Source: Candidatus Omnitrophota bacterium
Lineage (GTDB): Bacteria > Omnitrophota > Gorgyraeia > Gygaellales > Profunditerraquicolaceae
DNA: 64,000 nt
Direction of reading: 5' to 3'
NCBI GenBank assembly: GCA_028715415.1
Contig: JAQURX010000002.1
Location: forward strand, 119,144-183,143
The notes beneath the pieces are model-generated. The model saw only the letters and a program-made list of their open reading frames with translations, was not told where the DNA came from and did no database searches. A program made the position numbers and the translations under genes. Each line of letters starts with the position of its first letter. The first letter of the stretch is position 1. Shown here piece after piece: positions 15,001 to 36,000 of the stretch.

Positions 15001-18000
15001 ATCCCGATAGTGGCTTGGGACATAGTAGAAAGGTTCAAGCGTTGCGTGCTAAAGGCGAGATTAAAGCAGCCTTAAGAGCCGCAGTAAAGTTCGTAAATCT
15101 ATTTCCCAAAGATTCCATAGGCTGGAGCCAGTTGTGCGACGTGTATTATGATTTAGGTGATATGGAAGGCGCTTTAAGTTCTGCTTACGAAGCTATTAGT
15201 TTAGATCCGTCCAGCCCTTACGGTTATGGACAGTTATCAAAGGTGCTTCATTATTCTGGTTTAGAGTTTGAAGCAGCGATTGTTAGTGCTATTTCTAAGG
15301 CTTTGACTCCTGTGGGCCGGGGTTCTTTCGACAGCCGTTTTAATCTTATGTACATTTTAATTAAGGAATTAGATCTTAAGTGGTTAAACGGGAATATTGA
15401 TTTACAAGAGCGCAAATTTGTCCCGTTGTTTACCCCAACCGTTGAACAAAACGAAGCCATCAACATATTTAATCAGCTTATTGCAGAAGCAATTGAAATT
15501 ATCGGGAAAATGGGGGTAGTTTTAGAACCAGAATTAATCCGCACAAAGTTAAGGGTGGATACATCAAATGGTAAACTCGCTTGCGCAGCTGTAGAGGAGG
15601 CAATAGGAGTTACCAATGCAATTATTATATCTTGGGCGATGTTCGGCCGCGTGCCAAGATTAATCGCTTTGTATACTCTTGTAGAAGAAATATTGCATTA
15701 TAGTAAAAATAAGGATAAGGAAGTCCACGACCTTGTAGATGATTATATCGCAGAAAATATATATGATGATTTTCTGGCGGCTGTCAAAGAAGCTGCTGAT
15801 AATGGAATTGTTGCTTATGATCATTTTGTAGAGCGATATCTTTTAGAGGCACGGACTCGAGTTCTTGCGTTAGGGATTTTAAGAAATCTTCTTTTAAAAA
15901 GATATTCACAAGCATTTGAATCAACATCAAAGTTACTGGCTTATGCTACTTCTGATGAGGCACAGATAGTGTTAAGAGATGCGTCGGACATGTATCCCGA
16001 ACGATTAAATCAAATAGATAGAAGCCTTTTAACTGATACTGAATGGAGTTTTTGCAGAAATTTATCTTTAGGTAATTCTCTCAAGGCTCTATATGCAGCA
16101 GCAGAATTTATCAATAAAGAAAAAGAAAGCCCTGTTGGGCATTGGCTGCGCGCAATCGCTTTAGCCCTTCAAGGACGAACATTAGATGCGTTAGGAGAAG
16201 AAAAGAAAGCAAGAGAGTTTGATTTGCAGAACTCTTTTAGTTCTTCATTCTGCTTATCTCTGCCGGTTTTGGCGCTTTTTGGCATCAATGCTTCAGGTGC
16301 ATTTCCCGTAGCTGTAATTGCTATTCTTGCTATCTTTATTTTAATTCGTCAAGGTAGTTTCTCTTTTGCCCAATACGAAAGTCAATCCTTCCAGCCCAAT
16401 GCATGCGAAAGTAATGATCAGATAGAAGTAGCCTTTTTCAATAGGAAATATTTTACGCAGTGCGGTAAAAATATTTACGGCCTCCATATAGGAGATCAAA
16501 CATATCTTTTTGTGGTTCCTAATACGTTACCAGCCAGCCAAGATATGGCAAGTAGTATCACAAATTTGCGTTTAAGCGGCGGTAATGAAACACTGGATTT
16601 TGGTAACAGTAGTTTTGATATTGAAGATAAGAAATTCCAAAGGTATTTTAAATATCTTTTAAGATTTATGACTCAATTGAGTAGTAATGAATTGAATTAT
16701 AGTGATGGTAAAATTGCGATTAAACTGTCGATTAAGTATGGTTTAGAAAGAACTCAACTAAAAATTGATTTCCCGAAAACAGAATTTTCAACCGATATTA
16801 TAGATATCGAGCACAATAAAATGACTATAGATTTTCATAATTCGCCAAATTGGAGAGAAAAATCTTTAGCAGAAAGAAGTGTGTTATGTTTTATATACCT
16901 CCCGGCAATTATGCAGCGTGAAAATCTTAGACTTGGAGATATTGCATTGGAGCTTCTTTCAAATTTGCATTTGGAAATGCACCAGAAGAAAATAAGTAAT
17001 ATAGGCGTTAGGTGTGTAGATTTTCTTAAGTTTATGGCAGGCCAGCGCCGCGAAAAAGACTTAAGATTGTTATTGAGAAAATGGGAAGATGCAGATGAGG
17101 TATTAGCTGAAAGAATTGCGGCAAAGTTGAATGATGATTTACCGTATATAGATACGGGTCTTGTTAATTTAGTTTTACTAGGTAAAAATCCGGAAGCCAA
17201 TTTCCATAAAGCAATTGCTAGTATTTTTTCCGGTTTTGGTATTTCTTTGAAATTAGAAGAATTAGCTTTCTCGTCAAGAGCATTGCATATTGTTGAATTG
17301 GTGTCTAGAAAAATCGGTTTTAATTTAGGTCCGCAGTCTACTATAAAAGAAGAAAACAAATCAACTTTGTCTTGCCATGCTTGGTCAGTTTTAGCGCTTT
17401 TTGTCGGAAGTTATCAGCAAACATCCGTCATTGAGTTTCTCTGGGCAACCGGACCGCTGTGGGTGGTGGTTGCCTTAGCTGCAGTTTTATTCTTATCGAT
17501 GATGAATTTTTCTAAATTAAATCCTTGCCGCGTACCATCAACCCAAACAACTTTAAAACAGATACTTGATTCTAAGAAGATTGATATTAATTTCAAGAGA
17601 ACAATTCTTTATCCGGATATCCTTTTGCTTCTTTTGGGTGAAAGGCCGGGGTATATAAGATGCGAAGACAACGGTGACCCAGATATAAGCAAGATAGTAA
17701 GAAGTAAGATCGGAAATAAGTTAAGATTATTTAAAGCCGGAGATGTCACTATTTCTATCCCTCTTTTTGTTGCAAGGTTGAAGAAAGAAGGTTTATTCTT
17801 GGTAAAAAGCGGGATTATATCAGAAAGTGATTTACGTGCAATCGTTTCAAATTCAGCTTCAACTTGTAGTTTATTAACCGAACTTCTACTCAAATACAAA
17901 GAAAATGAATCTGATAGCGTTCAATTAGTAAAGTTGTGTGGTTTCATAAGCGGTTATCCTTTAAAAGATATAGAGTATGCGTTGTCAGGTAATAATCCGC

Positions 18001-21000
18001 TTAGAAAAGCATGGAGTTTATACGGCCTTAAGCGTTATTCAGACCAGGGGAGGAAAGAAGCTTTATTTAATCGCTGGGATAAGTCTTTAACTGATGCTTA
18101 TTCTTTATTGGCCAATGAATCATATTTTAATTCAGTAATGCCGGCTCGGGCTTTAGTTGCTTATTTGGGCCTTAAAGTTAAATCTGAGGAAAAATGGATT
18201 TATGTCGCAAATTGGTTTAAACGTTTAGCCGGATTTTTTAAGAATATGAAGTTAGCTGATTTTGAAAGAACCAAATATAGTTCAGATATAACGGATTCCC
18301 ATATTATTATCAATAAGCATAAGAGTTCAGGATGGTCTGCCGACCAATATGATGAGGAAAGAACAAGAGTCAGCGTAAGCGGTGGAGAAATAACGTTTGA
18401 TTACCGGTATACATCGAAAATCCATAGCGGCGGGCATGAAGATAGCTTTAAGGTTGTTTTTAAAGGGAATGTAACTGAGTGCGAAGCAAGCAGGGAATGG
18501 TCTCATTATACTGACCGTTTAACACGATATGGATTTGAATTTACATATAGAGGGCCGAGCCCGCTTGTTGATTTTGTAGGAGATTTAGATAATCTGCGCG
18601 CGGTTGTAACTCCTGATTTCTTAATCTGCTTAAGGTCAGCAATAGAACACTTTGATTATAAAAATAGAGGTTGTCGTTGCCAGGCTAAAATGCTCGAACC
18701 TGTAGAACTTAGCAATATATATTTACCTTTTGTCACAGAAACAGGTATTCAGAATAGCCCTGAGTGGAGAAGAAGGTTTTTATTTGAGCGCTTATCTTCG
18801 CATCCGCAAGAAAGCTATCCGTTTATTTTTAAAGATAGTGCAGCTGATTTCTCTAATTCTTTCTACAGTTTCTCCTTTTTGGCGATAGGGCTACCGTTAG
18901 TTTTTGATTTTCAAATAAGAGTGGTCCATATTATCCTAATTTTAGCTATTCTTATGTCTCTTTTTTATAAGTATGTTGTAAGGAAACATCTTTCTTTGAA
19001 CCAAAGTGGACATAAATCAAATTATTATAAGTATGCCATATTTATTATTGTAGCGTTATTGTCTATAGCCGCCGAACTTTTTTCAAACTATACAAAACGC
19101 ATTTATGACAAATTCACGGTAGTTGTAGTTAATGCTAATAATGTAAAACCATCCGAAGCCGCCACTACTCCAACTGAAACAAAGAGAAAAAATATTCTGG
19201 CGATTGTTGATAAGCGTCTTTCGGAAATGCCCGAATCTGAATTCAAAGAACACGCTAGGAGATTCAGAAGGGCACTTCTGTGCGCATCCTCTTTTGAAGA
19301 AGGGGCTTTTATTACTTCTACTATTATGGATGTTAAGAAGCACAAGGTCGGCCTTTCTATAAATTATCAGGTTTTTGTTGAATCCAAGGCGTTAGCGCAA
19401 AAACTATTTATGGTGGTTGAAGGCCGGCAGCTTTTGAATATTGCCTGTGTTGAGCAACTCATAAATATATCCAATGAGATTCCTGTAGTTCTTGATAAAC
19501 ATAATATTCCCCGCCATGATACTGATGCTATCGTACGTTTTGCTTTGCAAAATTCTGAATTTACAGATTTACTGCGAAGGGTTGCTAATTTAATTGTTGA
19601 TGGAACGTATTTTGGGTACAGGGAGGCCATGGAATTCTTGGTTGCAGAAACAAAAAGAATGAATAATGGTAAATTCAGCCTTTCGGAATATGAAACAATG
19701 GTGAAGCAGTATATTAATTCAGGATCCGAAATGTTTATGTTTGTCTGTGAGGATGGAAGCATTGATACCGGCGCATTAAGGAGCCATTTATTTATAAACC
19801 CGGCCAGTCAAAATTTATTATCAGAATTGATTCTGTTTATTGAAATGAAACGAGTGGGCAGCGATAGCAATGCTTTGACGTCTCCCGAATTTAGTAGCCT
19901 GTTATTCTGGCTTGATTACCCTAAATATTTTTGTGATTATTCTAAGGTAAAGATAGATCATCGTTGGAAGGATAATTCTGACTTGAAAAGAATATACGGG
20001 GAGCAAGGTGATTGGTTTAAAGATTATTCGCCTCTATTTAAGCATAATTCTGATGTTCCTTTGCATTGTTTTGCGTCTGTTCCGCTATTGGCGCTTCTTG
20101 GTCCCTGGTCCATCGGACCGCTGTGGATTGCGTTAGGTATTTTTGCTTTGATATTTGTTCTGCAGTTTACACAGACAAATTCCACTTTTCCTTGTAATCC
20201 TATCGTAAAAACTATTATTGCTGCCACTAGAATACATGCCCGGCAGTCTGAAAGCCTTGCCGTGATTTCTACCTTAATTAAGGAAAGAATAGGGATTAGT
20301 TTTAATATTAAAAGTAATAAATATAACCGTGCTACAGATCCTGTTTCTGCAATTGAATTATTAAAGCTAGCCATAAATCCAGGTGATTCAATCGAAATAT
20401 CTGTCCAAGGAGATTGTTCTATAGAATTATTGAATAAGGTTTTAGATATATTCATCAGAGCCTTTCAGGATCATAATCTTGATGCATTCGGATCATATGA
20501 TCATAGGGGTGATGTATTGCGTTTATCAATAGATAATAGCAGAAATGGGGGAGGTTCTATTCTATCCTGCCACGCTTGGCCTGTCTTAGCACTCTTAAGC
20601 TTTAACTCGCTATGGCTGGCGGTTGCCTTATTTGCATTCTTAGGTGTTTTCTATCTTGAGAAGGCGATTAAGAACCCCAATTTATCAGCTGCTATGTTTA
20701 CACCAACCCGCGGATATGGCAAGCGTAAATTCTGGTTTTTAGATAAATTTAGGTCATATATACATGAATCATGGCACATTATAGCGTATATTATTTTACA
20801 TCCTTTTTCTTCGCTTCTTGGGAAAGACAGGATTACTCTTGAGTTATTAAAGGCTACTTATGGAAGTAATCGTTTTGATCCTCCGAAATCTGAAGAAGGA
20901 TTGTTTGGTGCAATAGGTTGTCTGGCGGCTCCGTTTGGAAATGCCGCTTTTCAGGCATTGCTGACTTATGCTGCTATAGGGCTTTTTTCTGACGCATCCG

Positions 21001-24000
21001 GCATAATAGACTATGTTAAGGGGGCTTTTGTTCTTTCTATTGCTGCGATTGTTGCCCTTGATAATTTTGGCTATCTTTTTATAAATTTTGTCGCGAAAGA
21101 ACCGTCCGCTGATTGGAATAAAGCTTTCTGGATGCTGACCAAAGGGAACCGAGGGCTTAGCGTAATTATAACGTCCGCAATTTCCATTTGGCTTGCGCAT
21201 ATTGGTTTTACGCAGATTCCTTTATTGTTGAACGGAGTAACTTCTTTATCAGTAGTTTTCTATTCCATTATTGTGCTGACATTTTTGCCTTGGACAATAA
21301 TAGATACTTTAATTGTCATGAAATCCGGCAGGCTAGAATCCTCGCTCTTTCCTTTTCGCTTCTGGAATAGATTTGATTCCTCTCATCAATTGGGAAAGGA
21401 TATATTATCCGGTAAAGTGCCTCCAAATATTTATGATCATCCTAATGATACCCAGATGCTTTGGCTGGGTAATGCCGAAGCGGTTTTTGCTTCTTTGAAA
21501 TATCCTCAAAAAACAGAAGAATTATTATCAAAAGTTGTTTCTGAGGCGTTGGCGAGAGGTAAGAAAAGCATTGGTTTTAAGTTAACCATGACTGTAGCTA
21601 TAGAAGAATTCTTAAAAGCTTTCTGTGAAAAAATGTACCTCGGTTTTAAAAAAGAGGAGCAAGCCGGTGGAGAAATAACCTTAACGCTTATACAGAAGCC
21701 GAGAGAAGATGTCTTAAGTATTAAAGGGCACATAGTAAAACCTAATTATAAAATAAAGGTTCTTGGCTCAAATATTATAGTTTGTTTTGCAGAGAGGCAT
21801 TTAAGCAATATTACGAAAAAGCTTTGTTGGAAGTGCAAGTTTCATATTGATACTATCCCCGGGGTTATCGCGGTTAGAGGAAAGATCGATGATGATAGAG
21901 TGTCATATTGTCCTATAGAAAAGCACGACCCTATAATCCTATTTACTGATACTCCTAAAACTAGTACATTCTTGGTCCGAAAAGTTTCTGAAGAAACAAG
22001 GGAACTTGAGGCAAAACTTACCTTTACTGTTCTTTCCGTAAAAGAAAATGGCGAGATAGAATTGGATATTAAATCTTCTGTAGAGACGAGGATAAATATT
22101 TTCTTTAAGAAAAGTAAGGTAGATTCTTTTGTTGTCGGGCCGGAAGATGATCCAGCCCGAACAGTTCCACCTTTAAAGAATCGTCAGGCAAGAGAGGAAT
22201 TAAGGGCAATTAGGAATAGGTATGCTGGAGAAATTTCAGCTTTTGCTGTAACTAATAAATATGACCCATTCCGCAGTATGGGTTGTGGTATTCTTAAAAT
22301 GCTTAAAGAGAAGAAGGTCGCCAATATTCTTAAGGGAGCAGTTATTGCGCGCGCTCCTCCTGAATCAGCTTTAGTAAGTGAAATTAATGAGTTTGAAAAA
22401 AAATATCAAGTTAAAGTCCGCGCTTTAAATCTTGCCCCAAATATTATCGCAATGCTTGCTCCGAACCCTAATCTACAAGATTTAGTCCATGAAGCATCTT
22501 CTTTATCCGGCACAAATGATTTTGTCAGCGAGTCATTAGCTAAAAAATGCGCTTATTATAGGCATGCTCTTCCAAAAATAATCGGCAAGCCCGAGAAAAC
22601 TAAAAAAGAATTTATTGAAAAAGTTAGAAAAGAGTTGCTGAAAAATCCTGTCATCGATATTAGCCAGATAAATATATTAATGCCTAAGATAGAATTCTTG
22701 GCTGAACTTTCCGCTAATACAGAGTTTACAGGCAGAAGTGAACAAAGAGTAGTTGTTGAGCATATACTTGGCAGGTTGAGGGATTTAATTTCTCCATGCA
22801 TTATCGGAGCATCACAATCTGAGAGATTAAGGGAAATAGGCCAGCAGATAAGATGCAGCCAGATTTTGCTTGAAAATATGTGGTTAAAGCGTAAGTTTGA
22901 AGCAATTGCATACAACCGTATGGGTTGGATATGGGGAGTTGCCTTCCAGCGCGAATTTGCTTATCTTTCAGAATATATATTAGCCTTAAGGGTTTTTGGT
23001 TATCCTCAGTCAGCTGTTTCTTGCACAATAGAGAGCATGGATTATTGCCTTGCCCGCCTATTTACAGCGATAGAGCATTTTATCCCTATGTCTTCTTACG
23101 ATGACGATGAATTGCGCAGAAAAGTATTCTCTCGCCTTATGGCTGATCTGGTTGAAGATAAAATATATAGCTTAAGATGCCTTTCCGTTAAAGATAGAAA
23201 CAAAAATCGATGTATTAAAGTTTTGAATGAAATTGATTTTGAGCAAATAAAGCAAGTTATCAAGAATGTAAAAAGAAATGAAATGCTTCGTGAAAAAGAG
23301 TCAGAAAGAAAGTTGGCAGGAGAATCATCTTCAGGATTCTCAGGTGGTGGGTTAGGTCCGTCATTAAGGCTATATCCTCTTCAATCACAGGTTCATTCAT
23401 TAGAACAGCGGTTAGCATTACTTCAGAAGACAGCCGCTATTAAAGATGAACCGATCGATGAAGTCCCGGAAGAGTTTAAGGTTGAGCTATCTACTTTTAG
23501 CATTGATTCTTTTTCTTTGAAGAGTACGATTGTAAGTTTGCAAAATCCGCGGACCTACCGATCTCCAAATGGCAATGTTTTCGTGGATTATTCCGGGAAT
23601 ACCATATTAATCCAAGTAGAAGGGCCTGATGCTGAGCGGGTAAGAGGCGATTTAGATATTTTTAAGATAATCGTTGAGCTGGATAAAAATGGTGGTTATA
23701 AGAAAATATCTACATTTCCCGGATTATCCGGACTAAACTTTAGAACCATTGCAATTATTCTGCAGGATTCAGAATTTAATCAAAGTATTACAAACTTACC
23801 ACCGAGATTAAAAGAATATTTTGTTTTACCAGAAGTAGATGATGCTTTACGCAGACAAGAAGCTTTAGCTACTAAGGAAATACCTTTATTTGAATATCAG
23901 CAGCAGATAAACGCTTTAAAAATAGATGAAGACCTATTGGCTGCGCTTGAGGATTTAAAATTCGCAGACTCTCAGACGATCAGGCGCAAGGCAGTTGTTT

Positions 24001-27000
24001 ACCTTGGGCATCTTGTGAATGAACAAAAACTAAGCGTGAGGAGATTCAATTCATTACAGGCAGAATTCTTCCGTCAGGATGTCCTTGAAGACTTATCTTT
24101 AATCCAGAGGGCATTTCATTCTGATATGGATTTTGTCAGTGGTATATTCCGCAATATCTTCGGCAGGGAAATTGCACCTCAGGAATACGATTATTCAACA
24201 ATAAATATCAGGTATTTTGCCCGCGGCGCAAATAAATTAATTTATCTTGTGAATTGGAAGTTTTACGGTGGAGTTGAGATGCCCGCGTTTACAATTTCTA
24301 CTTTACGCGAATCCCAGCTTGGTATCGGCGATTTTGATGAAGAGAAAATTCAGACAGCAGTAAATTATTGGGAAGAAGCATCTTTCTCCGGTTCATCTGG
24401 AATAGCAAAATTTGGCGCTTTACACAGAGTTGTAGACACAAGAGGCCAGAGTGTTGTTATGGACGCACATGGAGGAAAAGAATGGTGCACTGTTTATAAT
24501 AATGTTTTCTTATTGGCAAAGCAGTTTATCCCGGGGATGCCTTTACATAAGGCATTAACCTCCAGCTATTCAAGAAAGAATAGCGCGTTATCGGCTGCTC
24601 AAAAAGGTTATTTTGATGTTTGGGAGAGAACAAAAGGCGCAGAAGGCACGGGCGTTTTCTTGAGAAATCCTCGAGCAGCTGACATTGTGGTTTCAAATGA
24701 AGATGAAGAGACAATCCAGGCAACGATTATCGATCCCGATACTCTTGATAGAGGTGGCCGGGAAACTCTTAAATCAAACTTCCAGAGGCTTGAGGGTTGT
24801 CCAGCCAGATTTACGAGCCTTCTTAGGCAAAGCTGTATTATTGCACCATTGGGTTTTATTGATTTTTCGGGTCTTACGCAATTTTCATTATCAAGTGTTG
24901 AGCTAACAGTATTGTTGGTTGTATTTAGTATCTTCGCACTTTTGTTTATTCAATCTTTTAGTCAAAATAAAGCAACGATTTTCCCTTCTAATCAGACCAA
25001 TTTAATACTTGATATTGGAGGCGCTTGGCCTACTGCTATCAAGTTAACTCTTCAGCATCTTCATCCCAATGATTTAGTTGTTATCTTGGATATCGATCCA
25101 GACAAGATTGAATTGGCTAAACAGTCTGTTGTGCAGGCAGGGAAATTAAATCAATTTATATTCATTGAAGGCGATGTAAGGGCTCTGCCTATTGAAGTTC
25201 AAAAGTATAGGTTTAATGAAATACATGCCTACAACATTTTAAAGAAGGCTCTTACTGATTTTGATAACGGTAAGATGGAATTAGTTATACGAAGCCTGGT
25301 TCCATTGTTACAAGATGGCGGAAAATTCTATCTTGCGGGTGTTGAGGGGCAGTGCGAGCTGGGTTTATTTAGTAAAGTATTTAGTGAAGAAGGTTTTGTT
25401 TTGTCTAGAGAAGAAAAGGGCGAAAAGGCAATGGGGCATTTTGTTTCTTATGATAAGGAAAATCATTGTTTTTGTATATGGGAGAAGCTTAAGCGAGAAA
25501 ATTGCGATGTAATTATTGTTGGTTCTGGGCCTGCAGGGCTTTCCGCAGGGTTATATCTTTCCAGAGAAGGATATAAAGTTGTAATCCTTGAGAAATCATT
25601 TATCGGGGGGAATCTTATCCTTGCCGCAAATATTGAAAATTATCCGGGATTCTTGAATGTAATTGGATTTGAATTAGCGGAGAACATGAGGAAGCAGGCA
25701 GAATTAGCGGGTGTCAAGTTTGATATTAAAGAAGTAAAAGACGTTGTGATTAATGCTCATAATCAAGAAAAACTGATAAGAACAGAAAATCTGGTATATG
25801 CTGCTAAGGCTGTAGTTATTGCGACAGGCACAAGCTACAAGAAATTAGGATTGGAAAAAGAAAATGAATTTACAGGAGCAGGGATTTCTTACTGTGCTGT
25901 TTGCGATGGGCCTTTCTTCAAGGGTAAGAAAGTAGTAGTAATAGGTGGAGGCAATACTGGCGTAGAAGATGCCTTGCATTTAGCAAAAATAGCTTCTCAG
26001 GTGACGCTAATTGTGAATAAAGATTATCTTAGCGCAGATAATGTATTAATAAAACGTATCCAAGCCCTTCCGGAAATAATTATTAAATATGGCAATAAAG
26101 TAATAGAGTTAAAGGGCGACATTAAGGTAAGCGGAGTAGTGATTGAGAATATTAAAACCGGCCTTAAGGAAACAATTGATGCAGAAGGTGTTTTTGTGGC
26201 AATTGGCGTTAAGCCGAATACAGATTTTATACAAGGATTGGTTAATTTAGATGGCAAAGGTTCTGTTATTGCAGATAAAGGCTATAGGACCTCTCAAGAT
26301 GGTATTTTTGCTGTTGGCAGCGTAAGAAGTGGTAGTTATAACCAAATAATTTCTTCTGCAGGAGAGGGAGCAGCTGTTACAAAGTTTGTTACTGAATATC
26401 TAACCTCTTTGAGTAATTATCCTGCAATACTTTTTGGGAAGTGCGCAGCTCCTACACCGAAGCAAATAGATAATTTTCAAAAGTATATTAGTAAAGCAGA
26501 AGACGAATTGTATGAAGATTTCCAAGATAAAATAGTATTGGTAGATAGAACTAAAACAGGCAAGGTTGCGGATTTAACAACAGTTTCGGGGAAAATCGCA
26601 ATCCTAAAGAATTTAGCTGCAAGGGCTCCTCCGTTTGAAGAAGCTAAGAATTCTTCGTATTTCCAATTCCTTCTTAATAAGATTCTGCTCCATGAGCTAT
26701 CCGAAATAAGCAATCATTCCCATACAACAGCCTGCCAGGAAGATTTCCAGCGGTTTGATGAAGTAATAACTGATTTGGTTTCATTGATTTTTTCTTTTAA
26801 GGAATTCGGGCTTTATCCCGATCATGATTATCTCTTAGGCCTTAATAAACTGCATAATGGCATAGCTGGAGATTTGATTAAGATTGGTAATTTCCAGCGT
26901 AGAGATTTTTCATTTGAAAGGTTAGTTTTCAAAGTCATCGGGTTACTTTCTTACGAAGGGCCAAAGGCGGATTTAATCCATAAGGCAGTGTTTAACGGTT

Positions 27001-30000
27001 TAAGAGGTATGGCTGAGGGTGTAGATTTAGGAGAAGATGGCACAGGCAAGGTATTGGGCCTTGCTGGCGAGATATCCGGTTTATTTGAAGTAGTAATTAA
27101 AAGAGGAAGCACTTTAGAGAAAATAGCTTTAGGAGAACTAGAACAGATAAATAGGATAGTTTCTGATAAAACCGGAGTTGTTAAAGAATTTGACGCAGTT
27201 TCAAACAATACAGTTTATGAATTTAAATTTCATCTTTCTCTACGCAAGCTTTATCAACAGGTAATTGGAATTGATTCATGGCGGACACCTCATCTTGAAG
27301 TGCTTACGGATGTTAGGGAATTCAGTGGGGTACGAAATCTGGTTTATTTTGGAGAAACAGACGGCGGCAATGTTATTAAGGCTTTAAAAGAATTTATCCG
27401 AAACAATCCTGAAGTTTTACCACAATTTAATCTTACCGAAACTGGAATTTCAGTTAAATTAAATCTTGAACAGGTAAAAGAATTTCTTTTTTCCGATTCT
27501 ATAATCATGTTAGCAGGGGAAGAAGAATACCAGGGAAGATTTGCAGGATCTTTTGTTGATTATAAACGCCATCATGAATATACAGAAAAGCTTATTAGCA
27601 GAAAAATTAAGCAACTAAGAGGAGAAAAGTTTGACGTTATTATCGCAGTAGGCAATGTTAAACCGAAAGATTTAGAGCAGATTAAGGAAATGTCCAGAAC
27701 TAGACAACAAGAAGCTAAGCCAATAGATTCAAATGTGCTCATTAATAATTCTTATATAGCTATTCCAGTCGATACTCTGGCTAGTCCTTGTGGAGTTAAT
27801 GGCCCTATTTCTAATACAGAGTTCTCTGCGAATCTTCTATTCCAAGAAGTATATGGAGGTTCTTGCTATGAAAGCTCGCTTTGCTATAGCCAGACTCCTA
27901 TTGACCCTCAAATTATTACAGAAAACGCACAATTTATGTCAGATGCTAAGCTGACTTTTGAAGAAAAAGTAGATAAATTATTCGATCTTTTATGTACTGC
28001 ATTTATTCGGCCCGAATATGAGGCAGTTAAGCCTTTGCATCCGGGCTTGTGTTTCCGGTTAGCTGGATTTGTAGCTATATATTTTGCTGCAGCCGGCTAT
28101 TATGCATACAGGGTTAAGCAGAATGGACAAAACTTTGCAATTGTCTATGATATTGTTTCAAAGCGATATCATCTTATTGATTTTTCTGCAGCCCAATTTG
28201 TTTTAGGAGATGCCTTTGGGCATAATTATGGAGATAAATATAGGGCTTCTTATTTAGAATTAGCTACTGCCAATCCTTTTGTAGCCAATCGTCTCGGAAA
28301 ATATGCAAAAAATGGAAAGAGCAACTCTGTTTTATCCTGCTGCGCTCCTTTGGCTATGGCTTTTAGCAGCAACTTTGGTTTAACTAAAACAGTATTAGAA
28401 GCTGTAGGAATATTAGTTGCGGGGTTCATAGTATTATTTATTCTTTTCTACATATTCGCAGATAGTTCCATGAAAGAAGATCAAGCAGCAGGGAAGGGAA
28501 AACACCCGGATACTTATGAAAGAATTATTAATGTCTTAGATGGAATTGTTAATGCGATTCCCCGGGTTATTCAAGGTAAGGAAGGTATATCATTTTCTGA
28601 AACCTTAAAAGAAAAAGTTTGCATTGTCATTACACAAGAGAGAAATATGGCAAGCATTTTGGCAGCACGCAAAAAAATATGGCTTAAAGTGAATCCCGAA
28701 TTTGCCAGATATTTAAATAATAGCGCGCTTGCTTTTATGCTGGGACATGAGATGGCCGAAGCATGTGACTTGAATAGCACTTCGCGATATTTTCTCGATG
28801 TCGCAAGATCATTCTTGTGGCGTATTGCCAACTTGCTTATATTGTTTTCTCCTTTTGGTTTAATATTTATAGTTATTTCTCCCGGCTATTCTTCTGAGTT
28901 CTTTGCTATTTTGGTATTTAGTATAATACTCCGTCAAGCAATTAAATACTCCATGTATAAAAAAGAATTCAAGGCGGATAGTTTGGGGTATCTTTTCATG
29001 AAAAATGCCGGTTTTGATGCAAACGGAGCAAGAGATTTCTTTGAGGTTTATTCCAAATGTAAAATCAAATGGAATATTTATTCAATATTAGGCCTATTGC
29101 TCTTTTGGCATCATCCAACGATTAAAGCAAGGATCAAAAGCTTAGAAAGAAAACAAAAAATAGGCAGCTTAGTATTGCCGTCTTTGTTGTTTGTCTGCGC
29201 TCTTGGCTTGCTTTTCCTCAGCGGCTGCGGTACATCTCCGCATCATACAGCCTATACCATTCAAATTAATTCAATTATTGCTGGCCTTGGTTTATCGCAG
29301 TTAGGGTTTACTTCGCCATTTACGCATGTAGTTAATTTAGTCGGAATTGGATTATTATTGTCCGTATTTGCTTTTATGGTTTCGTCTAATTTACTTAGCA
29401 CTAGGGAGAGGAGTTTGGGAAGCGTAATTAACAGAGCTTTAAAGATAGGATTGCCTACAGATAGGGAAATTAGTGTTTTAGAGAGGCAACAAGAAGCCTC
29501 GATGCCGACATTGGATGATCTGTTGAGTGCTAAAGTAAGTAATCCGGTTGAAAGAACAGCATGGAAGAGAGCCTGTAATAAATTTATTGATGAAATGAAG
29601 CCTAGCAAAAAGAACAAGAGAGAATTTCGCGAGATCGTTGACGACTTTCCTTTTTATAAAAAACAGCTGTTATCGAGGCAAGTATTTATCAATAGATACC
29701 TTTCTTTGTTGATAAATGAAGCGAATGACTTAAAGTCGCTAAAGATAGCTTTTAGTCTTGTGGAGAATTATATGAGAAGTTTTAATGATTCAAATTATCT
29801 TAATTGTATGTTTGCTCATCAAGAATCTTGTAGCTTCATATTAGTTTTTCAGAGATTGGTTAATGCGGCTAAGAGTGCCGAGCAATTGAAAGTCTGGGCT
29901 TCTCTTGTTAATTATTTTATGAAGAAAATCTGCCGTTCGGAACATTTTGTTTTAAGCCTTTCAGTTTTAGCCAGGAAACTGAGAGATAAAGATATCAAAT

Positions 30001-33000
30001 TGCTTAGAGCTTACGCAGATCTAATTATGAGATACCTTAGGGAGAGCGATGATCCTATAAATAGTGTTCAGAGCCTTTTGGAGTTTCCCGAAGCTGTGCT
30101 TGATTTGGCAGTGTTAAATGCAGAGGTATTTTATGCGCCTGCAGAATTATGTTATCGCAGATACGATGAATTTACCGGTAGATATGTAAATGTTTTTGAT
30201 AAAGATGATTTTGAAAAAGAAGTAAAGTCAGGACGGGTAATAGATATAGGAGGGAAGTACTATTTTCCAATTAAAAATCCCTTCATTCCTTATGACAATG
30301 TTCATAATCGTGCCTTGCTTTATAATTCTCGAGGAGTGGACATCGTATACAAAGGAGCAGGTGCATCAGCAAGAATTGTAAAGCACGGATTAATTCTTAA
30401 CTTTAGCCATGACAAGAGCCCGCATATATTATATGGTGGGCTTCCTTCGTCCGAGGCAACCATAGATGTTGATGTTTCATTTAGAAAGGCTTACCAACAG
30501 CTTAAGGCTGAAGAAGACCCGGGGTTACTGCTTGCTGAAAGAAATGGCGCTCGTATCGATATGTATAGAAAACCGATAGCTATGGCAAGGCTTGAAGCAT
30601 TTCCTGTGGTTGTGCCGAATGGTAGCGTTAACGAAAAACAAGCCAAAGAATTATTAAAACATGCGGTTAATAAACCTGATTCACTTGGCCTACCGGAAAC
30701 TGTGAAGCTCATATTGGCGCAGCACTTCCTTAATTTTATAGGAATCCCTAAAGACAGCAAAGAAGAAAGGGATCCTACAGAATATATTTATAGTGTTCCG
30801 GTAAACCGGAGATATCAGGAAATGGATTCTCTGAAAGCTTACGGTCCGGTTTTTGAGTATTATGGTTATAAAGTTAAGTTTGATCGCAAGAAAGGAAGAA
30901 TCTATGCCAAGAACAAGCAAGGCAAGACTGTTGATTTCTCTTCGGTCAGGCGGCAAGTCGTAATTTCTGCTGCTGTCAGGTATGCCTTATTTTTGCGTAT
31001 TTTGCATAAGAAGTTTAATGGCTGCGGGTTTAATAAATATGGTTCGGTTTTTAGTGAGCATAACTGCAATCCTATCACAATATTTGATTATGATGTTATT
31101 AGATATAACGAATTAACCAAAGAAACCCGCGAAGGTGATTTAGGACAAGCAGAGGAGGCGTTGGCTAGGCTACATCTATTATATACAAGCGCTTTTCTTG
31201 GAGAAAAACGTGGTGATGATGAAGATGAATTATATGAGGATAAGTGGGCGAGCAAAAGAATTTTTGATGGAATATATAACGCTCCAATGGATAAAGGGAC
31301 CGTTTCTCAAGCTGAAGCTAAAAGTGCCCCCCTTACAGATAGGAGGAACACTTCTCCGAACGGCCCAAGAACCGGTCTCCGAACAGCTCAAGAACCGGTT
31401 TCTAAGGTTGTGGCTTTATTGCTTATGCTCGGGCTTTGCCTTGCGCAGTTAGGATTTACTTCGCCATTTACGCATATTCTTAATGTAACCGGTGTTGGCC
31501 TTATTATTCTTGGGCTAATTCTTGTTTTTTCCGGGCAATCTTTTGCGCAAAGCAATAGCAGTGCCTCATCCAATAGACGCCTTTTACAAGTCAGGAAGAT
31601 TGCAAATGTACTTAAAGATTTGAGATATCCGAAAGAAGGCATTAAAGATATTCTTCGTAAAATCACTCCTCTGGTTTCAGAAGTTAATCAGGCGAGGATT
31701 AATCTTAGTTGTGAAGATGATGGCCAACTTAAATCTGAGCTTAAGCGTTTGGTCGAGATTCTTAGATCCAATACCCATACAAGTTGGCTGCAATTAAACT
31801 TAATAAATGACTTAGTTGGTTTTGATATTTTTAAGGAGATAGATGGCTCAGTAGAGAAAGGTAATTCCGAAGAAGCAATGCGTAGAAAAGCGACTATGTT
31901 GGGGTGCGTGCCTCTTTCTCAGTTAATGTATGTAATTTTAAAATCATGCGGCTTGGAAGTATATGGAGCCATGACAATGAAACATGCATTTGCTTTAGTG
32001 CTTTTGGAAGATGGAGAAAAAGGCCTAGCAATTGACCTTCTTTTTGGCGTAGTAAGGAAAATTAATTTAAGTAAATATTATAACTACAATAAGGATACCA
32101 GAAGTTATATCCTTAAGCCTAAATTTGTGATGGCGGAAGAGGAAATTGAGGAGTTTAGAAAGAGTTTGGGGGAGGGTGAAATTAATCCTGAGAAATTATC
32201 TTCCTCTGAAAAAATAGGCTTTTTAAATTTAGTATGCCCATATTTCCAATTAACGAATTCTACCGGTTTATCTGCCGCTATTTATACTAACTCTGGGAAT
32301 GTTACTATAAAGTATGGCCTTGAGAAAGTCCCCTTTCAATCAGGTGGTTATTCCAGAGGGCAAGAATGTTTTTGTTTTTATGAACTGGCAAAGAACCTTG
32401 ATTTAATAAACGCTTTTAATAATTACAATCGTGGGCTTGCGGCTATGCATTTTGAAGATATGGAAGTCGCCCTTGATGCTTTTCAGCTTGTAATAGATGC
32501 TTTTCCTTGTTTTGAACCTGCTGTCGAAGCCTTTGAAAGAGTAGAAGAAAAACTTCAAGTAGAAGAAAATCTTCGTAATGGCGGAGATTTCTTTTCAGCG
32601 ATGGATTTTAATTCTTTTTGGGGGAATAGCTGTATTATTTCCCCGTATTTAATTTTATCTTCTTTAGGATTCAGATGTGGGATTGGTTCGCAGCAAACAG
32701 GCATTATCGAATCTCTCTGGTCAACGGGTCCGCTGTGGATGGTTGCACTAATGGTATTTTCTTTTGTTACATATCTATTCTTTGCAGGATCTTCGGGTGC
32801 ATTAACGAGGAACAATGCTCGTTCAAACGAAGAATCATTTGGCGTCATATTGGGATACGACTATGAGCGGTCAGTTATAAAGCCGTTATCACGCCAGTTG
32901 CAACAGCTTGCCCAAAATAAACTTAAACCTGTATTGACTATTAATGAAAAAGGATTAGCCGTAGCTGATTGGGTAAGCGATAAATTTAGAGAATACATTG

Positions 33001-36000
33001 TTTCCCGCAGCCATTCCATTCTTGCTCTATATAATGAGCTTATGCAGGCATTAAAGGAGAAAGGTTTTGCTCCGGCAACGGTTATAGTTCATTCTTCTTA
33101 TATCGTAGCAACAGAGGCTGAAACTTTTCTCGAACCAGAGTTAACCCTAGATACTTATGCTTGGGATAAACACGATAAAATTTATAATCTTTTACCTGAA
33201 CTCGCAGGGGGAGAAGAAATAGTTAGTTTTAGGGATTCAGAAGGCAGCCTTCATTTGCCTTTTGGGTATTTTATGCCCGATACAGGTTTTGCATTAACTA
33301 AATTAATGATGGCTGAGGCGAGTTTGGGCGCTTTAGCCAAGGACACAGCAGAATTAGAAGCATGCGCTCTTAATCATACTTACGAGGAGCTTTTTAATGG
33401 AAAAGATTTTACTTTTAAGCGTGATGATATTGGAGGAGATATTGACAAAAGCAGGATTTTGCCATTTTTAGCTTTAAAATATCATTTTGAAATCTTTTTG
33501 CGCAAAGTCTATGAGATCAGGAAATATCTTGAAGAAGGAGATCTTACAAACTTAACTATACTAAAAGAAGAAATGATTCAATTTATGGCTACGACAATTG
33601 GCGATTGTGGTTTGGATGAGAAGCAAATAGCTGAAAATTGGATAATAGATAAAGAAGTGACAGATGCAGTGCATAATTTTATTATTTCAGCCCGCGTAAA
33701 GAATGCAGGTGAACTTAAGCTTTCGGTAATTAACTCTGCTTTGCTTAACTTCTTTGCGTTTTTGTCTTTAAATGAATCCCCGCGAATTCCCGAGAATATT
33801 TCAGCCACAGATTTTAGTAAAACAACCGAGTTAGCAGCCCTAAAAAGCCATATTTTACAACGACAGGTAACAAAAGAACAACTCTTAAGGGAGCTTTTTA
33901 AGAGGAAGGTGGTTTATATTCTTGATGAAAAAAGGATGCGAGGCATCGCGGAGTTGTTAGGGGAGGTCCCTAATAATACCATGGTAGTTTTTCATGGTTT
34001 TTACTATGCGCTTAATTGCGGTTCTGGTATTGATGAGGAAAAAGTTAATCAGTCATTAAATGACTATCTTCAGAATGGGGATAATAAGTGCTTGGACGTT
34101 CCTTCATCTTTACAATGGGATGAAATTGCATGTGCAGCTTCAAGTTCTCTTAAAAAGGCTTTTGATTATTTGCATCAGCGCAATAGACGAGGCGCTAATA
34201 TAACTTATCATACTGATTTATCCGATTATTTATTCCAGACTATTAATAGTGTTACAGTTCCTTTTGGGGATAGGATAAGTAATTTTACAAATATTTTAGC
34301 TCAAAGTGCTCAGACAAGAAAAGCAGAGCATATATTAATACTCGGCAGCCGAAGGATGTTCCCGATGGACGAAGATTTCTTGAAACCGAGCAGGAACAAG
34401 CAAGGGCCGGTTGTTGAAAGATTAATTGAGGTTTTTGGAAGAGATAATGTAGCTTTAGCCTTAAATCTAATTTGTGTTGATTCAGAAGAAAACATTATTT
34501 CCCGTGCAATTTGGGGGAGTAGTTTAACTTCTTTTGCTTTAAGAGGGCCTTTGCCAGAAACTATACTTCCTGCGCCTATTTGGGATAAGGTTGGAGAAAA
34601 ATATATTTTTGGTAATTTCCCACAAGGTATTTTTGTCACTGCAGTTAAATCTGATGATGGCGATGATCGCAAGCCCGAGCCTGTAGCTCCAGATCCCGAG
34701 CCTGTAGGCGAGGATGCTCCTGTTGGGGATCTAGTTTTGGCGTGCCACACCTTGCCGGTAGTATTGTTATTAGGTTTATTAGGCCTTGGCGGATGCGGGG
34801 TCGTCTCTCATCATGCGTCCTACGTCCTTCAACAGGATTTAACTGTTGAATCCTGTTGGGCGACGGGGACGTTGTGGGTTGTTTTTGTCATGCTTTTTGC
34901 TGTGTCGATGATGTTTGCAGTGCCGGGAAATAATGGCCAATTAGGCAGAGTAAGTGGTAGTTTAAGTCTAGCCCATGCTTTAAGGTGCTCGTCAAGTTTA
35001 TATAGGTATAATGTGTCGGCAGGGGATATACCAGCTCAAGCTAAAGATAAAAGGCTATATTGGGAAAGAAAGATACAAGAGGCCCGAGACAGAAGTGATA
35101 GAAGTGGTTGGCAAGCGCTCACCACATTAAGCAGGTTAAATCATATGGAGTTATGGGCAAATTTAATAATAGATAGGGAGACCACCAGAGGATTATTGAT
35201 CTTCGGAGAAAGCACAAGTGGTAAATCAACAATTACTTCTTTGATGCTGGGTCTTAATCCAAAAAGTAAAGACGTTGGTTTAAGCAATCGTTGGATTCTG
35301 GGAGTAGATGATTTAGCTCAAGGATTCTTTGTAAAAGATAATTTGATAGCCGGGATGAAGCCTTCTTGTGATGGTAGGAATAGATGCAATTTAGAGGTGC
35401 CAGTAGAAGCAAAGCCTCTTTTTGTAGTTGTTGGCATGGTTGTGTTTTTAAATTTAAGATTCGTTCAAAAAGAGCCCATACTAAAAACAAGATTGACACA
35501 TATCCTTAGGGAAATGCACGAATCAAGTTATTTTGCTTTGACAGAAGATTTTTATAGAACACTCCCAATATTGCCTTTATTTGAGGCCCGGGTTTTAGAT
35601 AATTGTGGGCGTAGATGTGATTATCCATCTTTGGCTAAAACAATCGAAAAGACTTGGTTACAAGTTCCCGCAGTGGGGAATGCGACATCGAAAAGGTTAG
35701 CTTTGCTTAATTCTGATGCAGGGAGAAATCACTGGAACGCAACATTTTATTCCGTATTACCCATTATTTTATTCCCGCTAAGCCATTTGCAGATCCAAGA
35801 GCTAATTGAATCCCTCTGGTCAACCGGACCGCTGTGGGTGGTGGTAATATTATTGATTTGCACATTATTCTTCGCAAGCCCAAGCAGTAACAGTTTCCCC
35901 TTTAAGTCCGAAACAGTTTCTAAGAGGAAATTCTATGTAATATTAGAAGAGCATAATAGTATTCGCCTGCCTCCGGAATTAGCAAATAAAATCCTTCTTC

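What the first reader, a model, noticed from the sequence alone, without database searches (positions are those of the whole stretch)
17375..35870. Recurrent hydrophobic hairpin cassette '..CHAW.VLAL.. / E.LW(S/A)TGPLWVVV' with a conserved nucleotide core, repeated at least 5 times
Copies lie at about 17375, 20055, 20565, 32700, 34740 and 35790. The 30-nt cores at 17441-17470 and 35815-35844 match at 29 of 30 positions although they are 18 kb apart, and 'ggaccgctgtgg' (G+C-rich in an AT-rich gene) recurs in four copies. These look like repeated membrane-insertion hairpins punctuating the protein, which is consistent with a protein threaded repeatedly through or along a membrane. Nucleotide-level conservation beyond what the protein requires suggests ongoing homogenisation or a functional RNA/DNA element.
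Basis: seen in the sequence. Interest (0 to 1): 0.6.

Follow-up and report, generated by a model that had tools for sequence, protein, structure and literature searches.

The report
Membrane-hairpin linkers in a giant gene
The repeated motif is real: it is a short, conserved membrane-hairpin linker that separates enzyme modules inside one enormous bacterial gene (probably Omnitrophota), and its nearly identical 30-base core most likely reflects copying between the repeats, not a functional RNA.

Summary
All six copies exist. GGACCGCTGTGG occurs 3 times exactly and once with one mismatch, against 0.03 expected.

The whole 64-kb window is a single stop-free reading frame of at least 21,332 codons. 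It carries many unrelated enzyme domains, like the published 'multi-enzyme' giant proteins of Omnitrophota.

The cassette has a short first hydrophobic helix (10-15 aa, Cys near its start, Pro in its middle), a loop almost free of Lys/Arg, a W-x-T-G-P-L-W motif, and a second helix of 16-23 aa. It sits at module boundaries, for example on both sides of an HPr-like domain and of a P-loop module.

Another Omnitrophota protein (MDD5432943.1) has at least 11 related cassettes flanking its modules.

Excess synonymous identity is confined to a ~15-codon core. Elsewhere the copies are saturated, and one copy keeps the motif with none of the shared codons. There is no common RNA fold and no Rfam hit. 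Mosaic relationships point to short-tract gene conversion. An extreme rare-codon, GC3-rich cluster at the core remains unexplained.

The parts
3..63998 (+). Single stop-free reading frame (at least 21,332 codons) that runs off both ends of the window. This is the giant multi-domain gene that holds all the cassettes.
   Evidence: 0 stops in this frame against 691-2286 in the other five. Pfam domains of many unrelated families, all in this frame.
16239..16391 (+).
   Evidence: 22.9 bits against the combined profile, of which it was a training member; 3.4 bits against the P0002-only profile; its VLALF codons match copy A at 14/15 nt.
17361..17528 (+). Cassette A (aa 5787-5842): STLSCHAWSVLALFVG / SYQQTSVIEF / LWATGPLWVVVALAAVLFLSMMNF.
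   Evidence: AlphaFold2 gives helix 4-30, a break at TGP, and helix 34-54 (pLDDT 73.7).
17430..17470 (+). Nucleotide core of copy A, the reference of repeat family D2.
   Evidence: its codon rarity is at the 0.08th percentile of the ORF.
20055..20192 (+). Cassette B (aa 6685-6730), a tight hairpin: LHCFASVPLLALLG-PWSIG-PLWIALGIFALIFVLQF. Core at 20094-20134.
20193..20555 (+). HPr-like phosphocarrier module (aa 6731-6851), bracketed directly by cassettes B and C.
   Evidence: PF00381 at 24.0 bits (cutoff 23), E 4.1e-5; the only PDB hits are HPr-related proteins, and they are weak (E 0.15).
20556..20687 (+). Cassette C (aa 6852-6895): ILSCHAWPVLALL-SFNS-LWLAVALFAFLGVFYL. It has the first half-motif only.
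   Evidence: its first helix is 77% nt-identical to that of A.
32622..32807 (+). Cassette D (aa 10874-10935). Core at 32706-32746, with GGTCCGCTGTGG.
32808..34730 (+). Conserved module of unknown function between cassettes D and E. Homologues exist as stand-alone 626-648-aa proteins and inside long Omnitrophota proteins.
   Evidence: the hits cover giant aa ~10936-11600; in P0005, P0008 and P0009 the same module is bracketed by RSE.R motifs instead of cassettes.
34731..34940 (+). Cassette E (aa 11577-11646). Its first helix is long and ends in a lipobox (the Cys-containing signature at the end of a lipoprotein signal peptide), LGLGGC. Its motif is ESCWATGTLW, encoded with entirely different synonymous codons. 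Core at 34845-34885.
   Evidence: it has its own 21-nt near-palindrome at 34823-34865.
34947..35711 (+). P-loop (Walker A, GESTSGKS) module between cassettes E and F. Paralogous to aa 19546-19742, and homologous to P0001 and to P0002 residues 4013-4250.
   Evidence: only weak P-loop/ABC ATPase hits.
35742..35897 (+). Cassette F (aa 11914-11965). Core at 35805-35845, 29/30 identical to A over 35816-35845.
   Evidence: codon rarity at the 0.05th percentile.
55725..55904 (+). Canonical-type cassette (aa 18575-18634): GLRCSGLLFASVIPMLASNDVGSVMPHAPPWIPILFLAAICLSYLISISNFSQS.
   Evidence: 42.8 bits, E 2.9e-14, against a profile built only from cassettes of the Omnitrophota protein P0002.
59229..59381 (+). 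Canonical-type cassette (aa 19743-19793), STLSCYGLLLATIPVLTNG.., directly downstream of the second P-loop module.
   Evidence: 14.5 bits, E 2.1e-5.; its STLSC is encoded with codons different from those of copy A.
63492..63680 (+). Weak cassette-like hairpin (aa 21164-21226) whose first helix ends in a lipobox (LALGGC). Paralogue of the 55725 cassette together with its downstream module.
   Evidence: 9.5 bits; aa 18582-18735 against 21166-21331, 47% identity.

Best explanation
The cassette is a protein-level element: a 45-70-residue helical membrane hairpin that links modules in a giant, probably Omnitrophota, multi-enzyme protein.

Anatomy:
- a short first hydrophobic helix (10-15 aa; Cys near its start in five of the six copies, Pro in its middle in five of the six; both are near-invariant over the wider 20-sequence set);
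- a short loop almost free of Lys/Arg;
- a Trp-rich interfacial turn (W-x-T-G-P-L-W, or P-P-W in the canonical type);
- a second helix of 16-23 aa that returns the chain to the side it came from.

Inferred function: each cassette staples the polypeptide to the cytoplasmic membrane, so that successive cofactor-dependent modules stay on the cytoplasmic face, tethered at intervals.

A related cassette type occurs in at least one other Omnitrophota protein.

The ~30-nt nucleotide island is most likely a by-product. Strong purifying selection on the interfacial motif keeps enough identity for short-tract gene conversion between copies, and that conversion then homogenises the synonymous sites of the core only.

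What is shown: the repeats, their statistics, their position at module boundaries, the hydropathy and charge pattern, and the confinement and mosaicism of the nucleotide identity. What is inferred: membrane insertion, the topology, and the conversion mechanism.
For: One ORF that carries many enzyme families.

The repeat statistics are far beyond chance.

Hydropathy of both segments fits membrane helices.

The loops hold 0.028 Lys+Arg per residue, against 0.149 upstream, 0.102 downstream and 0.123 background, over 21 cassettes from two proteins.

Homology to proteins elsewhere starts and stops at the cassette edges.

In P0005, P0008 and P0009 the same module is bracketed by RSE.R motifs where the window has cassettes D and E.

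An HPr-like domain lies between B and C, and a P-loop module between E and F.

The lipobox helix that precedes the glycosyltransferase family 4 (GT4) domain also proves to be half of a hairpin.

P0002, an Omnitrophota protein from a metagenome-assembled genome, carries at least 11 cassettes that flank its modules.

Cys and Pro are near-invariant across 20 cassettes.

Nucleotide side:
- Excess synonymous identity occurs only in the core.
- Old paralogous modules sit at expectation, with best 30-nt windows of 21-27/30.
- The first helix of A is closest to C (0.77), while its core is closest to F (0.91).
- In P0002, copy 3344 is 88% identical to copy 3952 in the first half and 91% identical to copy 3022 in the second half.
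- STLSC in A and in the 59229 cassette differs at 4 of 5 synonymous sites.
Against: No trained topology predictor could be run.

The first helix is too short for a normal span, so the element may be re-entrant (dipping into the membrane without crossing it) or even a single pass. A single pass would put alternate modules on opposite sides.

The AlphaFold2 models are of low to moderate confidence and give no geometry.

The link between the GPLW subfamily and the P0002-type cassette is not statistically established: hhalign gives probability 4.6% and E 0.0088 over 26 columns, and the P0002-only profile scores A and B below zero.

Searches with the cassette profile found nothing in 5.8 billion proteins or in GTDB genomes. 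Even P0002 was not recovered, so the distribution of the cassette is unknown.

Gene conversion was not tested against orthologues.

The rare-codon, GC3-rich character of the core in five of six copies, including copy C with a different peptide, is not predicted by plain conversion.
Confidence: 0.6

Rival explanations
1. The cassettes are processing sites. The giant ORF would be a bacterial polyprotein, and the conserved hairpins (and the RSE.R motif in soluble relatives) would mark where membrane or soluble proteases cut it into separate, individually anchored enzymes. This is how internal signal/stop-transfer helices work in flavivirus polyproteins.
For: The TM cassettes occupy the same positions as the protein-level RSE.R motif around the same module.

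Cys, Pro and small residues (S/A-T-G-P) are near-invariant at the top of the second helix.

The same ORF holds an LspA-like (signal peptidase II) region and a Peptidase_M48 domain. The LspA-like region scores 20.7 bits, below the cutoff of 25; the VTDWI and NIAD blocks are visible in it.

At least four internal lipoprotein-type signal peptides are present, one of them the first helix of copy E.

West-Roberts et al. also raised cleavage of giant proteins as a possibility.
Against: There is no direct evidence of cleavage. The cassettes match no known sorting or cleavage signal: each NCBIfam or Pfam family was hit by at most 1 of 20 cassettes, at E of 0.006 or worse. Most cassettes lack a lipobox. 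The peptidase hits are weak or generic.
Confidence: 0.15
2. The conserved core is a nucleotide-level signal, for example a programmed slow-translation (rare-codon) patch at the entry to the second helix that aids co-translational insertion, or another RNA/DNA element.
For: The cores of F, A, C, D and B are at the 0.05-1.2 percentile of codon rarity in the ORF.

GC3 (G or C at the third codon position) is 5-6 of 9-11 in all six copies, against about 3.2 of 10 expected.

The rare codons CTC and CTG (4% and 6% of Leu) are shared. Codon context does not explain this: outside the cassettes CTG precedes Trp in 1 of 29 cases, and GGA precedes Pro in 1 of 34.

A second hairpin family, QLGFTSPFTH, also has a core that is 29/30 identical.
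Against: Copy E keeps the peptide motif with 0/7 codons shared with A and an ordinary codon-rarity rank of 17.6%.

The canonical cassettes and the QLGFTSPFTH family are not rare-codon rich.

The distance from the first helix to the core varies from 9 to 46 codons.

There is no common RNA structure (z scores -0.97, -0.74, +0.51, -4.49, +1.09) and no Rfam match.

The motif DNA is absent from GTDB genomes and from JGI metagenomes, apart from two unrelated hits.
Confidence: 0.15
3. The cassettes are relics of an in-frame mobile or duplicating mini-element (like Rickettsia palindromic elements), or of the terminal anchors of genes that were once separate and then fused. On this reading they have no present function as linkers.
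For: The similarity is limited to 37-55 aa within flanks that cannot otherwise be aligned. The modules exist as stand-alone proteins elsewhere. The unit 'P-loop module plus downstream cassette' recurs three times.
Against: No terminal inverted repeats or target-site duplications are shared by the copies.

Outside the core, synonymous sites are saturated while the peptide pattern (L-x-C, Pro, Trp turn) persists. That means long-term purifying selection.

The stand-alone homologues P0004 and P0007 have no such anchor, and P0001 has an unrelated N-terminal helix.
Confidence: 0.1

Closest known systems
Multi-enzyme, membrane-anchored giant proteins of Omnitrophota (West-Roberts et al. 2023, bioRxiv 10.1101/2023.11.21.568195; Nielsen & Lui 2026, bioRxiv 10.64898/2026.06.07.730766)
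   Same: The ORF exceeds 21 kAA. It holds many unrelated Pfam families (response regulator, glycosyltransferase group 1, phosphorylase/amylase, methyltransferases, signal-peptidase-II-like). It has dozens of hydrophobic helices at roughly one per few hundred residues. Its nearest relatives are Omnitrophota proteins from metagenome-assembled genomes.
   Different: In the text held here, those papers count TM helices but describe no conserved, recurring hairpin cassette at module boundaries. The words hairpin, linker, gene conversion and polyprotein do not occur in Nielsen & Lui, and hairpin does not occur in West-Roberts et al.. They also leave open on which side of the membrane the enzyme domains sit.
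Internal signal/stop-transfer helices of flavivirus-type polyproteins
   Same: One long polypeptide is punctuated by pairs of hydrophobic helices that fix the side of the membrane for successive functional units.
   Different: There the helices are proven cleavage sites for signal peptidase and a viral protease. Here cleavage is untested, and the host is a bacterium. This comparison rests on general knowledge and was not tested.
Monotopic or re-entrant hairpin anchors (the reticulon-type wedge hairpin; the re-entrant helix of PglC with its Ser-Pro break)
   Same: A short hydrophobic helix-break-helix, 30-45 residues in all, with a conserved Pro. It is too short for two full spans, and both ends lie on the cytoplasmic side.
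   Different: There is no sequence relationship. The geometry here is unknown. In the longer copies (A, D, E, F) a polar loop of 15-21 residues suggests that the loop is really exposed. This comparison is from memory and was not tested.
Concerted evolution of intragenic repeats by gene conversion (as in repeat-bearing bacterial surface proteins)
   Same: Patches of near-identity between paralogous repeats of one gene, with a mosaic of nearest neighbours.
   Different: The tracts here are very short (about 30-40 nt) and lie in flanks that cannot otherwise be aligned. The tract coincides with the most constrained peptide motif.

Membership tests
Omnitrophota giant multi-enzyme protein (Nielsen & Lui class 1) | A single ORF of at least 10,000 aa | tested here: met
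   at least 21,332 codons without a stop, open at both ends.
Omnitrophota giant multi-enzyme protein (Nielsen & Lui class 1) | Many distinct Pfam families tile the polypeptide, and none dominates | tested here: met
   Response_reg, Phosphorylase, Pyr_redox_2, Peptidase_M48, Glycos_transf_1, Alpha-amylase, HTH_3 (five copies), methyltransferases, Abhydrolase_1, PTS-HPr.
Omnitrophota giant multi-enzyme protein (Nielsen & Lui class 1) | The organism belongs to Omnitrophota | tested here: inconclusive
   The source contig was found in no collection. The only named relatives are proteins from Candidatus Omnitrophota metagenome-assembled genomes, MDD5432943.1 and MDP3921239.1.
Omnitrophota giant multi-enzyme protein (West-Roberts 'giant genes') | A divergent SecA DEAD domain is present | tested here: not met
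   There is no SecA hit in the 21,332 aa of the window. The ORF is incomplete at both ends, so absence from the whole gene is not shown.
Helical transmembrane hairpin | Two hydrophobic segments separated by a short loop | tested here: met
   the loops are 3-21 aa long in 21 cassettes.
Helical transmembrane hairpin | Each segment is long enough (about 18 aa or more) to span the bilayer | tested here: inconclusive
   the second helix is 15-28 aa. The first helix is only 10-15 aa in all copies except E (25 aa). A re-entrant geometry is possible.
Helical transmembrane hairpin | Positive-inside rule: the loop is poor in Lys/Arg compared with both flanks | tested here: met
   0.028 in the loop, against 0.149 and 0.102 in the flanks (background 0.123).
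Helical transmembrane hairpin | Called as a TM-TM pair by a trained topology predictor, or shown by experiment | not testable with these tools
   No TMHMM, DeepTMHMM or Phobius was available. AlphaFold2 gives only helix-break-helix, at pLDDT 73.7 and 46.8.
Lipoprotein signal peptide (SPase II substrate) | A positively charged n-region, a hydrophobic h-region, and a lipobox [LVI][ASTVI][GAS]C at the end of the helix | tested here: not met
   of the six copies only E has a lipobox at the end of its first helix, and its upstream flank holds no Lys/Arg. In the others the conserved Cys lies at the start of the helix with no h-region before it.
C-terminal sorting signals (LPXTG, PEP-CTERM, PGF-CTERM and similar) | A match to the signal's profile, a C-terminal position, and a basic tail after the helix | tested here: not met
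   PGF-, PEF- and PGAP-CTERM were each hit by 1 of 20 cassettes, at E of 0.15 or worse. The cassettes are internal. The downstream flank is not enriched in Lys/Arg.
Structured RNA element | A shared, thermodynamically unusual fold, or a match to an Rfam family | tested here: not met
   z scores -0.97, -0.74, +0.51, -4.49 and +1.09, with different structures in each copy; no Rfam hit in the window.
In-frame mobile repeat (RPE/MITE-like) | Terminal inverted repeats, and nucleotide similarity over the whole element | tested here: not met
   no inverted repeats shared by the copies; outside the core the nt identity is 0.25-0.42.
P0002-type (canonical) Omnitrophota cassette | A significant match to a profile built from the P0002 cassettes | tested here: inconclusive
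The window copies at aa 18575 and 19743 match (42.8 and 14.5 bits). They share the L-x-C start, the mid-helix Pro, the (G/P)P(L)W turn and the position next to homologous modules.

The most novel reading that the evidence does not exclude
The hairpin cassettes, and the RSE.R motif that replaces them around the same module in soluble Omnitrophota relatives, are programmed 'punctuation' of an operon written as one ORF. Under this reading they are sites where the giant polypeptide is cut into separately anchored enzymes. Their in-frame, near-identical cores may also serve as recombination junctions through which modules are gained, lost and shuffled. That would explain both how such genes are built and how their products are used.
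Probability: 0.15. Interest if true: 0.85.

Novelty: new variant of a known kind. Interest (0 to 1): 0.5.

Why it matters
Giant Omnitrophota proteins are known to carry many membrane helices. The two papers read here leave two things open: where the modules begin and end, and on which side of the membrane the enzymes sit.

A conserved hairpin cassette at module boundaries would help on both counts. It would give a practical rule for cutting these proteins into units for structure prediction. It would also argue that the cofactor-dependent modules stay on the cytoplasmic face. And it offers concrete sites at which to test for proteolytic processing and for recombination-driven module shuffling.

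Tried and rejected
Searches for relatives that found nothing:
- The cassette profiles A1 and A3 against 5.8 billion proteins gave no hits. Even P0002 was missed, so this null mainly reflects the limits of the word index.
- Giant aa 5700-6899 gave no hit at E <= 1e-3.
- The degenerate DNA motif gave 0 matches in GTDB genomes. In JGI metagenomes it gave two matches, both in stop-rich, eukaryote-like DNA unrelated to this gene.
- DNA for P0002 is not on record, so codon-level comparison in a second gene was impossible.

Structure prediction: AlphaFold2 of the B-HPr-C segment without an alignment gave pLDDT 46.8, too poor for a fold search.

Readings tested and rejected:
- RNA-element reading: no shared fold, no Rfam hit.
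- Mobile-element reading: no terminal repeats.
- Known sorting signal or Pfam family: none.
- Codon-pair context as the explanation for the shared rare codons: rejected.
- A fixed 'pause when the first helix leaves the ribosome tunnel' model: rejected, because the spacing varies from 9 to 46 codons.

Not pursued: Chi-like reading of GGGTGGTGG in copies A and F. It occurs in only two copies, and the Chi sequence of this lineage is unknown.

Full report
**Context**

The whole window is one open reading frame. Frame 3 of the + strand has no stop in 21,332 codons, while the other five frames have 691-2286 stops. The gene runs off both ends of the window.

Pfam finds many unrelated domains in this one frame:
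- two response-regulator receivers;
- a weak signal-peptidase-II-like region;
- glycogen phosphorylase;
- TPR repeats;
- methyltransferases;
- a pyridine-nucleotide disulphide oxidoreductase;
- Peptidase_M48;
- a glycosyltransferase family 4 (GT4) domain;
- alpha-amylase;
- five HTH_3 domains;
- an alpha/beta hydrolase;
- an HPr-like domain.

This is the 'multi-enzyme metabolic cluster' architecture described for giant proteins of Omnitrophota, which are also reported to carry very many transmembrane helices.

The source contig was found in no collection. The only named relatives recovered are proteins from Candidatus Omnitrophota metagenome-assembled genomes.

**The observation**

All six copies exist, in frame.

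GGACCGCTGTGG occurs exactly three times and once with one mismatch. The expected count is 0.03, and none of 100 shuffles reached four.

Repeat family D2 has five in-register members. Copy C shares only the first half of the cassette.

**Anatomy**

Each cassette has four parts:
- A short first hydrophobic segment of 10-15 aa (25 aa in copy E). It usually opens with L-x-C and has a Pro in the middle.
- A loop of 3-21 aa.
- A Trp-rich turn, E-x-L-W-(S/A)-T-G-P-L-W.
- A second hydrophobic helix of 16-23 aa, followed by an F-(S/A)-x and S/N/Q-rich tail.

Kyte-Doolittle means of the second helix are 2.0-2.7.

Over 21 cassettes from two proteins the loops hold 0.028 Lys+Arg per residue. The upstream flank has 0.149, the downstream flank 0.102, and the background is 0.123. 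Acidic residues are not depleted in the loops. By the positive-inside rule this pattern puts both ends on the same, cytoplasmic, side.

AlphaFold2 on copy A, using the six copies as its alignment, gives helix, a break at T-G-P, then helix, at pLDDT 73.7. A second model, of the B-HPr-C stretch, was too poor to use at pLDDT 46.8.

The first helix is too short for a normal span. A re-entrant geometry, in which the hairpin dips into the membrane without crossing it, cannot be excluded.

**Position at module boundaries**

Self-comparison shows that cassette similarity extends over only 37-55 aa. The flanks cannot be aligned.

A search of 1.84 billion representative proteins with giant aa 10850-12049 found homologues of the stretches between cassettes, and the matches stop at the cassette edges:
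- The D-E stretch matches stand-alone proteins of 626-648 aa and parts of long proteins.
- The E-F stretch is a P-loop module. It matches a 373-aa protein (P0001) and residues 4013-4250 of P0002, a 7346-aa partial Omnitrophota protein.

The 121 aa between cassettes B and C are an HPr-like domain (24.0 bits against a cutoff of 23). The PDB support is weak.

The lipoprotein-signal-like helix just before the GT4 domain turns out to be the first half of another hairpin.

Crude segmentation shows that paired segments, or single hydrophobic stretches of 33-41 aa, are common along the ORF. Several segments it scores as single are the first or second helix of a cassette.

HPr, P-loop and GT4 modules need cytoplasmic substrates. 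That fits hairpins which return the chain to the cytoplasm. This last step is an inference.

**A wider family**

P0002 carries at least 11 copies of a related cassette: L-(H/S/G)-C-x-G-L-L-L-x-x-I-P-V-L-A-N ... A-P-P-W ... F-x-F-(A/S)-(Q/E)-T. They flank its modules, and one immediately precedes the module homologous to ours. A twelfth, divergent hairpin follows that module but does not match the profile (-5.0 bits).

A profile built only from P0002 cassettes finds two further cassettes in the window. These lie at aa 18575-18634 (42.8 bits, E 2.9e-14) and aa 19743-19793 (14.5 bits). There are weaker candidates at aa 5413-5463 and 21164-21226.

Cys and Pro in the first helix are at least 90% conserved over 20 cassettes.

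- shared features;
- an identical STLSC opening in copy A and the 19743 copy;
- an equivalent position, with a cassette directly after the P-loop module twice in the window and the divergent hairpin in the same place in P0002;
- an hhalign alignment that pairs GPLW with PPW.

Statistically the link is weak: hhalign probability 4.6%, E 0.0088. I treat it as likely, not shown.

No Pfam or NCBIfam family, including the C-terminal sorting signals, matches the cassettes.

**The nucleotide question**

At aligned identical amino acids, codon identity between copies is 31/72 in the 15-codon core, against 21.6 expected from the gene's codon usage. In the rest of the cassette it is 51/138 against 52.3. 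The excess comes mainly from three pairs: A-F (8/10), A-B (3/3) and B-F (3/4). Copy E shares 0/7 codons with A yet keeps the peptide motif.

Older paralogous modules in the same gene (32-57% aa identity) mostly sit at expectation, with one pair at z 3.8. Their best 30-nt windows reach only 21-27/30. The cores are therefore unusual islands.

The nearest neighbours are mosaic. The first helix of A is closest to C (0.77 nt identity), its core is closest to F (0.91), and the remainder of the second helix is near random for all pairs.

In P0002 the same mosaicism is visible at the protein level. Copy 3344 is 88% identical to copy 3952 in the first helix plus loop, and 91% identical to copy 3022 in the second helix.

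STLSC in A and in the 19743 copy differs at four of five synonymous sites. The peptide pattern is therefore old and under purifying selection.

A second, unrelated hairpin family (QLGFTSPFTH, nt 29298-29327 and 31446-31475) shows the same behaviour. Its core is 29/30 identical, and in its flanks conserved residues use different codons.

Taken together, this favours short-tract gene conversion acting where protein constraint preserves enough identity.

An RNA element is not supported. The five cores fold differently, and only copy E is unusually stable, through a private palindrome. Rfam finds nothing. No flanking inverted repeats are shared.

**What stays unexplained**

The cores of F, A, C, D and B are among the rarest-codon windows of the whole ORF, at percentiles 0.05-1.2. 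Copy C, with a different peptide, is one of them.

All six copies are GC3-rich, meaning rich in G or C at the third codon position.

The shared Leu codons CTC and CTG make up 4% and 6% of Leu codons in this gene. Codon-pair context does not favour them.

GC-biased gene conversion and selection for slow decoding both fit. They cannot be separated without orthologues.

**Comparison with the literature**

The two Omnitrophota preprints report the number and density of TM helices. They disagree with themselves on which side of the membrane the enzyme content sits.

Neither mentions a conserved hairpin or linker.

The cassette is therefore a new, specific feature within a known kind of protein. It is not a new kind of system.

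**Limits**

No topology predictor was available. No DNA of a second cassette-bearing gene could be obtained. Searches for further carriers failed for technical reasons. The distribution of the cassette beyond two proteins is unknown.

Noticed in passing
window 3-63998 (+): The entire 64-kb window is a single stop-free frame of at least 21,332 codons. GC skew is strongly positive throughout (0.08-0.33). The gene is cut at both ends of the window.
   Followed up: yes
L003 208-24177 (P0009); also P0008 and P0005: These long Omnitrophota proteins share the window's D-E module but have no TM cassettes. In them the pentapeptide RSE[LVMA]R recurs 15, 10 and 3 times (expected 0.10, 0.03, 0.01) and brackets the shared module on both sides. 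Its codons vary freely in L003, so it is a protein-level signal. It may be a processing site or linker signature. A literature search for the motif found nothing relevant.
   Followed up: partly
window aa 9739, 11595, 12212, 18049 (nt ~29217, 34785, 36636, 54147); by eye also aa ~20900 and ~21177: Textbook-looking lipoprotein signal peptides lie deep inside the ORF, with a basic n-region in most, a hydrophobic core, and a lipobox L-(S/G)-G-C (for example KKIRWLMIGVVIFITILSGCAT). The reversed-sequence control gave 1 against 4. Together with the LspA-like region near the start of the window, they raise the possibility of self-processing.
   Followed up: partly
window nt ~942-1328 (aa 314-442): A divergent signal-peptidase-II (Peptidase_A8) region scores 20.7 bits, below the cutoff of 25. 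The blocks ADLGTK, GGVTDWI and TNIAD are recognisable. They resemble the conserved LspA blocks that carry the two catalytic Asp residues; that assignment is from memory. The N-x-G-x-A-F block was not found.
   Followed up: partly
window 29298-29327 and 31446-31475 (family D5, 29283-29350 / 31431-31498): A second, different hairpin family (QLGFTSPFTH just before the second helix; in one copy the first helix has a lipobox) also has a core that is 29/30 nt identical. In its flanks, conserved Gly and Leu residues use different codons. The 'identity island' phenomenon is therefore not unique to the GPLW cassette.
   Followed up: partly
window 34823-34865: Copy E alone contains a 21-nt near-palindrome (81% complementary, 1-nt spacer) that spans the QQD...ESC codons. 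A 101-nt stretch around it folds at -40 kcal/mol (z -4.49). The Leu-to-Cys change in its motif extends the stem.
   Followed up: no
window nt ~47270-49380 (aa ~15758-16460): A tandem array of at least five HTH_3 (Cro/C1-type) DNA-binding domains lies inside the giant ORF, with 25-39% identity between units. DNA-binding domains tethered to a membrane-anchored giant protein are odd.
   Followed up: no
window 61435-61615 and 63781-63961: A pair of 181-nt direct repeats at 92% identity, 2346 nt apart. The encoded proteins are 74% identical over 96 aa, and synonymous identity is z 5.6. This is a recent internal duplication near the 3' end of the window, which shows that the gene is still growing by duplication.
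   Followed up: partly
window aa 11717-11896 versus 19546-19743: The two P-loop modules are only 32% identical in protein yet share 33/52 codons at identical residues, against 20.4 expected (z 3.8). Other old paralogues in the gene do not show this.
   Followed up: no
L001 1204-1233 (-) and L002 2496-2525 (+): The only metagenome matches to the degenerate motif encode FWSTGPLW and LWATGPLW, in stop-rich, eukaryote-like DNA. The two resemble each other downstream (..F(E/D)PI..R..). They are probably copies of some eukaryotic repeat and are unrelated to the giant gene.
   Followed up: partly
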